IMG/VR virus record: IMGVR_UViG_3300029008_000041
From: a virus
Taxonomy: Duplodnaviria; Heunggongvirae; Uroviricota; Caudoviricetes
Length of the DNA stretch: 4,258 nt
Strand: one strand, 5' to 3'
Shown here: positions 364 through 1,154 of the stretch, one piece after another
Layout: each line of letters begins with the position of its first letter
Numbering within the stretch: the first letter of the stretch is position 1
Made by a program: the position numbers and the translations under genes
The notes under the pieces: model-generated
The model's database searches: none
Seen by the model: only the letters and a program-made list of their open reading frames with translations
Told to the model about the DNA's origin: nothing

Positions 364-435
364 CGGTTGTCTCTGCTGGCGCAGCAGGTGCCAGTTGTTC
401 AGGCTGGCGTGCGAATTGTAAACCAGAATGCTAGG

Positions 436-462
436 AAAAAACAAAACCCGCCGAAGCGGGTT
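436..462 (-). terminator. rho-independent terminator at the 3' end of the hok mRNA
   Basis: On the minus strand: 7-bp stem AACCCGC/GCGGGUU with a UUCG tetraloop (445-462), followed immediately by UUGUUUUUUCC (444-436). It lies about 70 nt downstream of the hok stop codon. Confidence 0.6.
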
Positions 463-468
463 AAGTGC

Positions 469-481
469 GGGTGCGTTGAGG
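469..481 (-). promoter_or_regulatory. candidate fbi (fold-back inhibition) element of the hok mRNA
   Basis: Minus-strand CCUCAACGCACCC is near-complementary (one extra C) to the predicted hok mRNA 5' end GGGUGCUUGAGG (855-844). In hok-family mRNAs the 3' fbi pairs with the 5' tac element. Confidence 0.35.
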
Positions 482-529
482 ATGCCTGACACATCAGAGG
501 TGGCGAGGGATTCTCCCCCGCCTGGTCTC

Positions 530-685
530 TTACTCCTCAGGTTCGTAAGCTGTGAAGACAGCGACCTCCGTCTGGCCGGTTCGGATTCGTACCTCGCAGA
601 GGTCTTTCCTCGTTACCAGTGCCGTCACTATGACGGTTAAACAGATGACGATCAGGGCGATTAACATCGCCTTTTGCTGCTTCAT
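530..685 (-). CDS. hokD: Hok/Gef family type I toxin (51 aa)
   Basis: Translation MKQQKAMLIALIVICLTVIVTALVTRKDLCEVRIRTGQTEVAVFTAYEPEE shows the Hok/Gef hallmarks: an N-terminal transmembrane helix and the conserved TRKDLCEV..R.G..EVAVF.AYE core. From memory it matches E. coli HokD (RelF) and differs at about ten positions from Gef/HokC. SD AAGGAG sits 9 nt upstream of the ATG at 685-683. The symbol is from recall, not a search. Confidence 0.88.
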   Translation of the reverse strand: MKQQKAMLIALIVICLTVIVTALVTRKDLCEVRIRTGQTEVAVFTAYEPEE

Positions 686-742
686 AGCCTGCTTCTCCTT
701 GCCTTTCGGCACGTAAGAGGCTAACCTACATTTGTGAGACAT
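530..742 (-). CDS. mok: mok-like in-frame upstream reading frame overlapping hok (70 aa)
   Basis: ATG at 742-740 with SD GAGG 8 nt upstream; same frame and same stop as hok, which is how chromosomal mokB/mokC are annotated in E. coli. The leader AUGUCU...AGCCUCUUAC...GCAAGGAGAAG closely resembles the plasmid R1 mok/hok leader as I recall it. Confidence 0.45.
   Translation of the reverse strand: MSHKCRLASYVPKGKEKQAMKQQKAMLIALIVICLTVIVTALVTRKDLCEVRIRTGQTEVAVFTAYEPEE
699..727 (+). promoter_or_regulatory. candidate sok antisense promoter
   Basis: Plus-strand TTGCCT (699-704), 17-nt spacer, TAACCT (722-727), inside the mok N-terminal codons. This is positionally equivalent to the R1 sok promoter (recalled as TTGCGC-17-TATCCT). 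Predicted start near 734. Confidence 0.4.
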
Positions 743-805
743 AGATTGGGCCTCAGATTAATGTTAAGCGTCTTGCAGGACGCGTAATGTTAACTGGGGC
801 TTTTC
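734..805 (+). ncRNA. sok: candidate Sok-like antisense RNA
   Basis: Plus-strand transcript antisense to the mok SD and start codon. It contains a long imperfect hairpin (761-790, one mismatch) followed by GGGGCUUUUCUCU. Both ends are approximate and inferred by analogy with R1 hok/sok. Confidence 0.35.
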
Positions 806-829
806 TCTATCTGCCTTTTGGTGTTCATG

Positions 830-855
830 CCTGAGGCAGATAGCCTCAAGCACCC
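830..855 (-). promoter_or_regulatory. hok mRNA 5' leader (tac/ucb-like stem-loop)
   Basis: Minus-strand GGGUGCUUGAGGCUAUCUGCCUCAGG forms the hairpin UGAGGC-(5 nt loop)-GCCUCA. A downstream GGCAGAUAG (815-807) can pair instead with CUAUCUGCC (843-835), giving mutually exclusive folds like those described for nascent R1 hok mRNA. Confidence 0.45.
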
Positions 856-861
856 GCAGCA

Positions 862-889
862 ATTCTACTTAACTCTCGCTTTACCGCAA
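862..889 (-). promoter_or_regulatory. candidate hok mRNA promoter
   Basis: Minus-strand -35 TTGCGG (889-884), 16-nt spacer, -10 TAGAAT (867-862), about 7 nt upstream of the predicted mRNA 5' end near 855. Confidence 0.4.
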
Positions 890-904
890 ACCGTTTTTAC
901 CCGA

Positions 905-930: not shown

Positions 931-1035
931 TCAGTTCCCCAGGCGCTCCATCAAAAACACAACCAGGCAGTAAACACCCACAACAGCAACAACAGCCAGC
1001 GCACCTTCCATTGCCAGTGATATATCATCCGACAT
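931..1035 (-). CDS. candidate small hydrophobic membrane peptide (34 aa)
   Basis: ATG at 1035-1033 preceded by a strong SD AAGGAGGG (4-nt spacer). Translation MSDDISLAMEGALAVVAVVGVYCLVVFLMERLGN has an acidic N-terminus, a roughly 19-residue hydrophobic core and a charged C-terminus. It is below the ORF-track length cutoff. Confidence 0.4.
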   Translation of the reverse strand: MSDDISLAMEGALAVVAVVGVYCLVVFLMERLGN

Positions 1036-1070: not shown

Positions 1071-1154
1071 TTACCCCCACCGACAAATAACATATACTAA
1101 AAAAGCGATAGCCATAGCAACGCCTGTAATTGCAAATGCTTCAGGCCAGTTCAT
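1071..1154 (-). CDS. candidate small hydrophobic peptide (27 aa), translationally coupled to the DUF551 gene
   Basis: Its ATG (1154-1152) overlaps the TGA stop of the DUF551 gene (1153-1151) in an ATGA arrangement. Translation MNWPEAFAITGVAMAIAFLVYVICRWG. No separate SD, consistent with coupling, but the ORF is very short. Confidence 0.3.
   Translation of the reverse strand: MNWPEAFAITGVAMAIAFLVYVICRWG

What the first reader, a model, noticed from the sequence alone, without database searches (positions are those of the whole stretch)
430..890. Complete hok/mok/sok-type type I toxin-antitoxin locus inside the prophage, with 5' tac-like and 3' fbi-like elements
The 51-aa ORF is an unmistakable Hok/Gef toxin and, from memory, matches HokD (RelF). 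In E. coli K-12 hokD sits directly downstream of relBE and is regarded as lacking its own mok/sok regulation. Here there is no relBE upstream. Instead there is a roughly 110-nt leader whose sequence and alternative pairings resemble the plasmid R1 hok mRNA 5' end, an in-frame mok with its own SD, a 3' segment complementary to the 5' end, and a UUCG-tetraloop terminator. This looks like an intact, possibly functional version of the locus.
Basis: partly seen in the sequence, partly recalled or inferred. Interest (0 to 1): 0.55.

Follow-up and report, generated by a model that had tools for sequence, protein, structure and literature searches.

The report
Known prophage hok/mok/sok toxin-antitoxin locus
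This is a complete copy of a well-known small killer-peptide gene (hok) with its antisense RNA antidote (sok), of the kind carried by lambda-like prophages in most E. coli strains; it is correctly read by the first stage but it is ordinary and already described.

Summary
On the minus strand, window 890-436 carries a full hok/mok/sok type I toxin-antitoxin locus. It has a promoter, a 170-nt leader, a 70-codon mok ORF in frame with a 51-codon hok, a 3' fbi box, a UUCG-loop terminator, and a Sok antisense gene on the plus strand.

The Hok peptide is 51/51 identical to K-12 HokD. K-12 shares only window ~701-437, and upstream of that K-12 has relE.

The 5' end (855-844) pairs with 481-469 with probability >0.96. 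This pairing sits at the same place in 53 of 64 related loci and shows compensatory changes. After 3' trimming, a tac-ucb refold that moves the mok Shine-Dalgarno off its anti-SD lies 0.8 kcal/mol above the MFE.

None of this is new. The locus is 94% identical to mokW/hokW/sokW of phage 933W, annotated in GenBank AF125520 and shown experimentally in Sp5 to be a type I TA (PMC8621323). At least 80% of the 501-nt region is present in 3857 of 5426 complete E. coli genomes.

One side observation: the Sok 5' tail/target patch (728-750) is hypervariable, with 20 variants in 120 copies.

The parts
862..889 (-). Putative hok promoter: -35 TTGCGG (889..884), 16-nt spacer, -10 TAGAAT (867..862).
   Evidence: Read from the sequence. 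A TAGAAT/TATAAT/TACAAT-like hexamer lies about 5-8 nt upstream of the conserved GG(G/C)(U)GCUUGAGG start in dozens of related loci. Sequence conservation among HokD-clade copies begins at ~860. The strict consensus scan did not call it (8 of 12 matches).
437..855 (-). Full-length hok (mok-hok) mRNA, about 419 nt. The 5' end is inferred and the 3' end is at the terminator U run.
   Evidence: Position 1 of the Rfam RF01794 model aligns at 855. The MFE is -172 kcal/mol with z = -8.25. The terminator was found.
844..855 (-). tac (translational activator element): GGGUGCUUGAGG, the 5' end of the mRNA.
   Evidence: It pairs with fbi in the full-length fold with P >= 0.965 per pair. It pairs with 837-827 or with ucb in the trimmed RNA. 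The motif is conserved in 64 loci.
827..837 (-). Immediate downstream complement of tac (GCCUCAGGCAU). This is the partner in the metastable/nascent hairpin.
   Evidence: The MFE of the 3'-trimmed RNA and of the first 32 nt forms this hairpin. The role is assigned by analogy with R1 as described in PMC9841398.
796..802 (-). ucb / mok anti-SD (AAGCCCC).
   Evidence: In the full-length MFE, 800-796 pairs with the mok SD. In the trimmed RNA, a tac-ucb fold is 0.8 kcal/mol above the MFE. RNAalifold on 37 family members predicts this tac-ucb helix. It is also the outer helix of the Rfam consensus.
530..742 (-). mok ORF (70 codons, ATG 742..740, stop 532..530), with SD GAGG at 754..751. It is in frame with hok.
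   Evidence: ORF list. It is 90% identical to MokW of 933W. The SD position was computed.
728..750 (-). Sok-target region and hypervariable patch. It comprises the mok start codon flanked by variable bases, and is the complement of the Sok 5' tail plus the 6 nt between the Sok -10 and +1.
   Evidence: Column variability is 0.23-0.28 here, against 0-0.05 in most neighbouring bins, in 10 HokD-clade loci. There are 20 variants of the 10-12 nt after the ATG among 120 IMG/VR copies.
717..721 (-). dcb (GCCUC), the partner of the mok SD in the 'open' trimmed conformation.
   Evidence: Constrained fold. It corresponds to the last long helix of the Rfam consensus. The role is as described for R1 in PMC9841398.
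530..685 (-). hok ORF (51 codons), with SD GGAG at 698..695.
   Evidence: Pfam HOK_GEF, E = 3e-23. It is 100% identical to K-12 HokD and 43% identical to R1-type Hok.
502..522 (-). G+C-rich 3' UTR hairpin (GGCGGGGGAGAAUCCCUCGCC). It is the presumed 3' end-protecting stem of the trimmed mRNA.
   Evidence: It is present in the MFE of both the full-length and the trimmed RNA. The helix has compensatory changes in the family alignment (columns 380-382/397-399). The role is by analogy with R1 (PMC9841398).
469..481 (-). fbi (fold-back inhibitory element): CCUCAACGCACCC.
   Evidence: It pairs with tac. It is invariant in 933W and K-12 hokD. It sits at the same place, 40-62 nt after the stop, in 53 of 64 loci, with U-A/C-G and G-C/A-U compensations.
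436..462 (-). Intrinsic terminator: AACCCGC UUCG GCGGGUU followed by UUGUUUUUU.
   Evidence: Terminator scan. It is shared with K-12 hokD, but 933W has a different sequence here.
699..727 (+). Sok promoter: -35 TTGCCT (699-704), 17-nt spacer, -10 TAACCT (722-727).
   Evidence: Read from the sequence. It is identical to the corresponding 933W sequence. The mutagenic primers YO-421/422 of PMC8621323 replace exactly this -10 element in sokW. The consensus scan did not call it.
734..806 (+). Sok antisense RNA, about 70 nt: a 5' single-stranded tail, one long hairpin, and a GGGGCUUUUCU 3' end. It overlaps the mok start codon and SD.
   Evidence: Coordinates were transferred from the sokW misc_RNA of AF125520. 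The fold is -30.4 kcal/mol with z = -5.25.

Best explanation
Window 890-436 is an intact hok/mok/sok type I toxin-antitoxin module in the early (replication to nin/Q) region of a lambdoid prophage. It is the full-length form of the locus whose remnant in K-12 is hokD.

Proposed mechanism, by homology with R1 hok/sok and Sp5 hokW/sokW:
1. A modest promoter makes a ~419-nt mok-hok mRNA.
2. The mRNA 5' end (tac, 855-844) pairs with fbi (481-469). The mok Shine-Dalgarno (754-751) is held by the anti-SD/ucb (800-796). The full-length RNA is therefore neither translated nor bound by Sok.
3. Slow 3' exonucleolytic trimming removes the terminator and fbi.
4. tac then pairs with ucb (802-796), and the mok SD shifts onto dcb (721-717). 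The mok initiation region becomes available.
5. The short, unstable Sok RNA (plus strand, ~734-806) pairs through its 5' tail with the mok start region. This blocks mok translation, and hence the coupled hok translation, and triggers duplex cleavage.
6. When Sok synthesis stops, the stable trimmed mRNA is translated. This could happen on loss of the element, on transcription shut-off, or on prophage induction.
7. The 51-aa Hok then inserts into the inner membrane and depolarises it.

Shown here: all sequence elements, their predicted pairings, their conservation, and the relation to K-12 hokD, 933W hokW and R1 hok.

Inferred: transcription start sites, processing, translational coupling, toxicity of this copy, and the biological role. 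That role may be prophage addiction and/or help with lysis at induction, as reported for Sp5.
For: - Toxin: Pfam HOK_GEF at 81.6 bits. Hok is 100% identical to K-12 HokD and Mok is 90% identical to MokW.
- Leader: Rfam RF01794 at 121.7 bits against a gathering score of 59, over the whole model, with nearly all helices formed.
- Related annotated loci: 93.9% nucleotide identity to the annotated mokW/hokW/sokW of 933W. A 100% identical 501-nt copy is annotated hokD in a lambdoid prophage between DUF551 genes and DUF968/RusA/Q.
- tac-fbi pairing: P >= 0.965 per pair; whole-RNA z = -8.25.
- Family conservation: fbi lies at a conserved distance from the stop in 53 of 64 loci, with compensatory U-A/C-G and G-C/A-U changes. 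The first six pairs are 99.5% paired across 37 sequences, against at most 61% when the partner is slid by 1-3 columns.
- Switch: the mok SD pairs with the anti-SD in the full-length fold, and tac-ucb plus SD-dcb lie 0.8 kcal/mol above the MFE after trimming. RNAalifold recovers tac-ucb and a stem with 16 double-sided changes.
- Sok: the fold is a tail plus hairpin with z = -5.25. Its promoter is identical to that of sokW, whose -10 was inactivated experimentally.
- Experiment on the close homologue: HokW is toxic, sokW neutralises it, and HokW is produced on mitomycin C induction and localises to the inner membrane (PMC8621323).
- The R1 mechanism used as the template is described in PMC9841398.
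Against: - No expression data exist for this copy.
- Neither promoter reaches the consensus-scan threshold.
- The tac-fbi duplex on its own is only marginally better than shuffled 3' UTRs (33 of 2000).
- Covariation rests on two variable pairs that probably reflect few evolutionary events.
- The MFE of the trimmed RNA is the tac/immediate-downstream hairpin, not the tac-ucb fold.
- In neither predicted trimmed fold is the mok SD unpaired.
- According to work cited in bioRxiv 10.1101/2025.08.07.668861, the chromosomal hokA, hokB and hokC loci did not mediate post-segregational killing. Structural integrity therefore does not prove activity.
- The window differs from hokW at the Hok C-terminus, at mok codons 2-4 and at the terminator.
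Confidence: 0.85

Rival explanations
1. The locus is structurally intact but physiologically silent. It would be a conserved passenger whose Hok is never released under natural conditions, as has been claimed for the chromosomal hokA/B/C loci.
For: Work summarised in bioRxiv 10.1101/2025.08.07.668861 reports that chromosomal hok loci failed to mediate post-segregational killing or rifampicin activation. Both promoters are non-consensus. Many genomes carry several copies, up to 10 places per genome, including visibly decayed ones such as L014 and L072.
Against: Sequence conservation is sharp from the transcription start to fbi while the flanks vary, which argues for purifying selection on the whole RNA. 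The 94%-identical hokW/sokW produces HokW on induction and affects lysis and phage yield (PMC8621323).
Confidence: 0.12
2. hok here is expressed mainly by read-through from the upstream phage early genes, as hokD is within the relBEF transcript in K-12. On this view the leader elements are relics without a regulatory role.
For: All upstream genes (DUF551, DUF4014, DUF977, replication genes) are on the same strand as hok. No terminator was found between 890 and 960.
Against: The leader is the most conserved part of the locus apart from hok itself. It matches a structure model far above threshold. A -10-like hexamer at a fixed distance from the conserved 5' end recurs across genera. A 5' extension would also abolish the terminal tac-fbi geometry, which is conserved.
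Confidence: 0.03

Closest known systems
mokW/hokW/sokW of Shiga-toxin phage 933W and Sakai prophage Sp5 (GenBank AF125520; Takada et al. 2021, PMC8621323)
   Same: The architecture is the same, in a lambdoid (pro)phage. Nucleotide identity is 93.9% over 441 nt. tac, ucb, dcb, fbi, the Sok promoter and the Sok hairpin are identical. Mok is 90% identical.
   Different: - The Hok C-terminus is TAYEPEE here and VDYESEK in HokW.
- mok codons 2-4, which correspond to the Sok 5' tail, differ: TCTCACAAATGT against CTGAACACATGT.
- The sequence after fbi differs, and 933W lacks the UUCG terminator seen here.
- The flanking phage genes differ.
E. coli K-12 hokD (relF) in the Qin prophage, downstream of relBE
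   Same: The Hok peptide is identical (WP_000813254.1). The hok SD, coding region, 3' hairpin, fbi and UUCG terminator are nearly identical, at 98.5% over query positions 202-464. The downstream neighbours are similar: a 279-nt hypothetical gene, then a DUF968/ydfU-type gene.
   Different: Homology in K-12 begins ~17 nt upstream of the hok ATG. The promoter, tac, ucb, mok start, dcb and most of sok are replaced there by relE and its 3' flank. The same leaderless relE-hok junction also occurs in Shigella, Kluyvera and another enterobacterium (L016, L043, L048).
hok/sok (parB) of plasmid R1 and R1-type IncF plasmids
   Same: The set of elements and their order are the same. There are conserved blocks at tac, ucb, mok SD/start, dcb/Sok -10, and Sok -35/hok SD. 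Both match the same Rfam model. fbi lies at the same distance from the stop.
   Different: Hok is only 43% identical. tac/fbi have GGCGC/GCGCC in R1-type loci instead of GGGUGC/GCACCC here, a compensated change. The leader hairpin has a different length. The Sok hairpin is longer here, with a 19-nt insertion relative to the R1-type sequence. The replicon is a plasmid rather than a prophage.
hokC (gef)/sokC chromosomal locus
   Same: The peptide is 82% identical. The same GGGUGCUUGAGG tac is paired with a ..CAACGCACCC fbi containing the same bulged C (L022-L029, L034).
   Different: It sits at a different chromosomal location that is not phage-borne. It also has a shorter leader (tac at about -146 rather than -166 from the hok AUG).

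Membership tests
hok/mok/sok type I toxin-antitoxin family | Small hydrophobic Hok/Gef toxin peptide (Pfam PF01848). | tested here: met
   81.6 bits against a cut-off of 22, E = 3e-23. It is 100% identical to HokD, 82% to HokC and 43% to R1-type Hok.
hok/mok/sok type I toxin-antitoxin family | An overlapping upstream mok reading frame with its own SD, starting in the Sok-complementary region. | tested here: met
   The ATG is at 742, in frame with hok, giving 70 codons. GAGG lies 8 nt upstream. Mok is 90% identical to the annotated MokW.
hok/mok/sok type I toxin-antitoxin family | A cis-encoded antisense Sok RNA gene (promoter within the mok/hok leader, 5' tail plus terminator hairpin) overlapping the mok translation initiation region. 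| tested here: met
   -35 TTGCCT, 17-nt spacer, -10 TAACCT at 699-727. These are identical to sokW, whose -10 was mutated experimentally. The fold is a tail plus hairpin with z = -5.25. Expression itself was not tested.
hok/mok/sok type I toxin-antitoxin family | A conserved structured hok mRNA leader (covariance model). | tested here: met
   RF01794 at 121.7 bits against a gathering score of 59, model positions 1-157 of 157. The hit is on the hok-sense strand.
hok/mok/sok type I toxin-antitoxin family | Long-range 5'-3' tac-fbi pairing that closes the full-length mRNA. | tested here: met
   Pair probabilities are 0.965-1.0. The position is conserved in 53 of 64 loci. Across 37 sequences 99.5% of cells are paired, with one compensated pair. 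Alone against shuffles the duplex is only marginal (33 of 2000).
hok/mok/sok type I toxin-antitoxin family | An alternative tac-ucb pairing, with a mok SD/anti-SD to SD/dcb switch, after 3' trimming. | tested here: inconclusive
   The elements exist, and the tac-ucb fold is 0.8 kcal/mol above the MFE of the trimmed RNA. It is the RNAalifold and Rfam consensus. However, the MFE itself is the tac/adjacent hairpin, and folding kinetics cannot be computed here.
hok/mok/sok type I toxin-antitoxin family | 3' processing to a stable truncated mRNA, RNase III cleavage of the Sok-hok duplex, and differential RNA stability. | not testable with these tools
   This needs a Northern blot or a rifampicin chase. 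For hokW, smaller RNA species were seen but not assigned (PMC8621323).
hok/mok/sok type I toxin-antitoxin family | Hok is toxic and is neutralised by the cognate Sok. | not testable with these tools
   This has been shown for the close homologue HokW/sokW (PMC8621323), not for this copy.
K-12-type hokD (relBE-hokD/relF arrangement) | The HokD peptide sequence. | tested here: met
   51/51 identical; same RefSeq protein accession.
K-12-type hokD (relBE-hokD/relF arrangement) | relE immediately upstream, and no hok leader, mok or sok. | tested here: not met
   The window has the full leader and no relBE. K-12 homology starts at about window 701.

The most novel reading that the evidence does not exclude
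The one sharply hypervariable patch inside an otherwise near-invariant RNA lies at window 728-750. It covers the Sok 5' recognition tail and the mok-start target. I found 20 variants among 120 prophage copies.

The most novel reading is that this patch is a specificity code kept diverse by selection. On this reading, each of the several lambdoid prophages in one cell has a Sok that silences only its own hok mRNA. Loss or induction of one prophage would then be sensed individually, rather than being buffered by the Sok RNAs of its neighbours.
Probability: 0.25. Interest if true: 0.4.

Novelty: already known. Interest (0 to 1): 0.1.

Why it matters
The finding matters little beyond correct annotation. 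RefSeq labels only the 51-codon 'hokD' CDS in such prophages. Readers should know that the mok ORF, the Sok RNA and the cis-acting RNA elements are also there, and that K-12's hokD is the truncated exception rather than the rule.

The locus type has a documented effect on lysis timing and phage yield in a Shiga-toxin prophage (PMC8621323). Its presence is therefore relevant when prophage induction in pathogenic E. coli is studied.

The variable Sok-tail patch could be a useful natural data set for antisense-RNA specificity.

Tried and rejected
- **Promoter scan.** The consensus promoter scan over 380-960 found no sigma-70 site on either strand. Both promoters are called from homology and fixed spacing only.
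- **Chance complementarity.** I tested whether the 5'-3' complementarity is chance. The duplex energy alone is only marginal (33 of 2000 shuffles; a -21.6 kcal/mol site also exists elsewhere in the window). I relied on comparative data instead.
- **RNAalifold.** On 37 full-length hok mRNAs it did not return tac-fbi. It chose the mutually exclusive tac-ucb helix, and paired fbi with a GGAGGUSGC stretch in the hok coding region with one-sided changes only. I treated that alternative as a by-product of sequence similarity to tac, and counted tac-fbi explicitly.
- **R1 record.** Plasmid R1 under accession KY749247 is not in the plasmid collection. I used an IncFII plasmid whose Hok is 100% identical to my recalled R1 Hok sequence. 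Its leader may differ from R1 at a few bases, so I made no claim about the R1 mok frame.
- **Co-residence test.** I asked whether co-resident prophage copies avoid sharing the same Sok-tail variant. Five of six co-resident IMG/VR pairs, and all copies in two genomes with three copies each, differ. Two random copies differ 90% of the time anyway, so the test has no power.
- **Weak Rfam hits.** ceN48, SNORD65 and isrK are far below their gathering scores and were dismissed.
Full report
**What is in the window.**
The minus strand of window 742..530 is a 70-codon ORF. Its last 51 codons, from the ATG at 685, are a Hok/Gef peptide. The Pfam HOK_GEF match is 81.6 bits against a cut-off of 22.

The peptide is 51/51 identical to K-12 HokD. 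RefSeq gives the same protein accession, WP_000813254.1, in a strain that carries the query's 501 nt at 100% identity and in the K-12 derivative C600. It is 82% identical to HokC/Gef and 43% identical to R1-type Hok.

A scan of the whole window against Rfam gave one significant hit. Family RF01794 ('sok') matches 855..680 on the minus strand at 121.7 bits (gathering score 59, E = 2e-28), covering the whole model.

- The hit is on the hok-sense strand.
- The model consensus starts with GGGUGCUUGAG and ends at the hok AUG.
- In practice, therefore, it scores the structured hok leader.

**Anatomy (minus-strand RNA numbered from 855).**

| Element | Sequence or description | Window coordinates |
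|---|---|---|
| -10-like hexamer | TAGAAT, with TTGCGG 16 nt upstream (889-884) | 867-862 |
| tac | GGGUGCUUGAGG | 855-844 |
| Immediate complement of tac | GCCUCAGGCAU | 837-827 |
| Anti-SD / ucb | AAGCCCC | 802-796 |
| mok SD | GAGG | 754-751 |
| mok AUG | | 742 |
| dcb | GCCUC | 721-717 |
| hok SD | GGAG | 698-695 |
| hok AUG | | 685 |
| Stop | | 532-530 |
| 3' hairpin | G+C-rich | 522-502 |
| fbi | CCUCAACGCACCC | 481-469 |
| Terminator | UUCG loop plus U run | 462-436 |

On the plus strand, the Sok elements are as follows.

- -35 TTGCCT at 699-704, a 17-nt spacer, and -10 TAACCT at 722-727.
- These precede a ~70-nt RNA at about 734-806.
- That RNA folds into a 9-nt free 5' tail, one long hairpin and a U-rich end (-30.4 kcal/mol, z = -5.25).
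- The Sok coordinates are transferred from the sokW feature of GenBank AF125520.

**Is the 5'-3' pairing real?**
The 419-nt RNA folds to -172 kcal/mol with z = -8.25. In the partition function, nt 1-12 pair with 481-469 at 0.965-1.0 per pair.

Taken alone, the duplex (-21.5 kcal/mol) is not overwhelming. It is reached by 33 of 2000 dinucleotide shuffles of the 3' UTR. The decisive evidence is comparative.

- I fetched 80 Hok loci from one genome per species.
- 64 distinct loci carry the tac motif.
- In 53 of them, the best partner of tac within 170 nt after the stop lies 40-62 nt after the stop.
- tac position 4 is U-A in 20 loci and C-G in 31.
- tac position 12 is G-C in 40 loci and A-U in 9.
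- Counted on a MAFFT alignment of 37 full-length mRNAs, the first six tac-fbi pairs are 99.5% paired. When the partner is slid by 1-3 columns, 24-61% are paired.
- One pair has a double-sided change, in 15 sequences.
- The variable pairs probably reflect few events, so this is consistent but modest covariation.

**The switch.**
In the full-length MFE, the mok SD is paired with the anti-SD. Removing the 3' end (RNA ending at 484) gives an MFE in which tac pairs with the adjacent complement. This corresponds to the 'metastable' nascent hairpin described for R1 (PMC9841398).

A fold in which tac pairs with ucb, and the mok SD moves to dcb, is only 0.8 kcal/mol higher. That fold is the consensus of both RNAalifold on the family and the Rfam model. 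The inner stem 843-834/816-807 shows 16 A-U/U-A swaps.

All elements of the R1 mechanism are therefore present. Which trimmed conformer dominates cannot be settled by thermodynamic prediction.

**Relation to K-12 hokD.**
A three-way alignment shows that K-12 matches the window from 'AGGAGAAGCAGGCTATG', ~17 nt before the hok ATG, to the terminator. Upstream of that point the K-12 sequence is relE and its flank, which is unrelated.

- In the genome survey, K-12-type records cover only query positions 202-464.
- K-12 therefore keeps the hok SD, the ORF, the 3' hairpin, fbi and the terminator.
- K-12 lacks the promoter, tac, ucb, the mok start, dcb and most of sok.

The window itself has no relBE. 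Its upstream ORFs are DUF551, DUF4014-type, DUF977 and replication genes. The same relE-hok junction is also present in Shigella, a Kluyvera species and another enterobacterium.

**Why it is not new.**
The 501-nt region has matches in 4741 of 5426 complete E. coli genomes. In 3857 of them the match covers at least 80% of the region. The median is 2 places per genome that has any, and the maximum is 10.

In the phage collection, 102 records match. One is phage 933W (93.9% identity), whose GenBank record annotates mokW, hokW and the SokW antisense RNA.

Takada et al. (PMC8621323) studied hokW-sokW of Sp5 and reported the following.

- HokW is toxic.
- sokW, expressed from its own promoter, neutralises it.
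- RNase III and Hfq contribute partially.
- Mitomycin C depletes sokW and induces HokW in a RecA-dependent way.
- Deleting the locus halves phage release.

Their mutagenic primers replace exactly the TAACCT element that I call the Sok -10. The sequence from the Sok -35 to the -10 is identical in the window and in 933W. Enrichment of hok genes in prophages is also already reported (bioRxiv 10.1101/2025.08.07.668861).

**Side observation.**
Among ten distinct HokD/HokW-clade loci, conservation rises sharply at ~860 and falls after ~469, which delimits the transcript. Inside it, one patch stands out at 728-750. Its per-column variability is 0.23-0.28, against 0-0.05 in most neighbouring bins.

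The patch is the mok start codon plus the bases on both sides. That is the complement of the Sok 5' tail plus the 6 nt between the Sok -10 and +1.

- A pattern scan of IMG/VR with the conserved flanks returned 120 copies.
- These carry 20 different versions of the 10-12 nt after the ATG.
- In most variants read by eye, a YUNR-type sequence follows the AUG.
- Co-resident copies usually differ.
- Random pairs also differ 90% of the time, so this does not show avoidance.
- Relaxed constraint on a loop, and on the functionally unimportant Mok N-terminus, is an adequate alternative explanation.

**Verdict.**
The element is an ordinary, already described member of the prophage hokW/hokD group of hok/sok loci.

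Noticed in passing
window 728-750 (minus strand); loci L001, L005, L008-L011, L018-L020, L165-L284: There is a hypervariable patch around the mok start codon, which is the Sok 5' tail and its target, inside an otherwise near-invariant locus. It has 20 variants among 120 IMG/VR prophage copies. Co-resident copies mostly differ, but no more than chance predicts.
   Followed up: partly
window 855..680 (minus strand): The Rfam family RF01794, named 'sok antitoxin', matches the hok-sense strand. Its consensus runs from the hok mRNA 5' end (tac) to the hok AUG. In practice it models the hok leader rather than the Sok transcript strand.
   Followed up: partly
L003, L016, L043, L048 (upstream of hok): The leaderless relE-hokD junction known from K-12 is also present in a Shigella flexneri genome, an unnamed enterobacterium (G50) and a Kluyvera species. 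The relBE-hokD fusion is therefore not a K-12 peculiarity.
   Followed up: partly
window 547..544 (minus strand), Hok codon Tyr47: The sequence CUUACGAA around the Tyr47 codon (UACG) is conserved across the Hok family alignment. bioRxiv 10.1101/2025.08.07.668861 states that hokC/D/E mRNAs are A-to-I edited by TadA at the equivalent tyrosine-to-cysteine site. The motif is intact here.
   Followed up: no
window 1035..931 and 1154..1071 (minus strand): Two very small hydrophobic ORFs lie between the DUF551 gene and the hok promoter. They are the 34-aa MSDDISLAMEGALAVVAVVGVYCLVVFLMERLGN, annotated as hypothetical WP_001278455.1, and the 27-aa MNWPEAFAITGVAMAIAFLVYVICRWG. Neither has a Pfam family.
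   Followed up: no
L010, L013, L042, L060, L063, L083, L084; phage hit H35: Near-identical E. coli-type or R1-type hok loci appear in assemblies labelled Veillonella, Xanthomonas, Acinetobacter, Vagococcus, Dysgonomonas, Ferruginibacter and Streptomyces. One also appears in an 'Actinobacillus phage' (98.9% identity). Most are on short contigs, so they are probably contamination or mis-binning rather than true hosts.
   Followed up: no
L014, L072 (E. coli ECMA0423), L068, L041: Decayed copies of the locus sit alongside intact ones in the same genomes. The defects include a deleted tac and a frameshifted or extended hok ORF.
   Followed up: no
window 441-521 (minus strand): There is a sub-threshold Rfam match of the hok 3' UTR (fbi plus terminator) to isrK, a Salmonella island-encoded Hfq-binding sRNA. 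It scores 18.6 bits against a gathering score of 50 (E = 0.82), so it is most likely chance.
   Followed up: no
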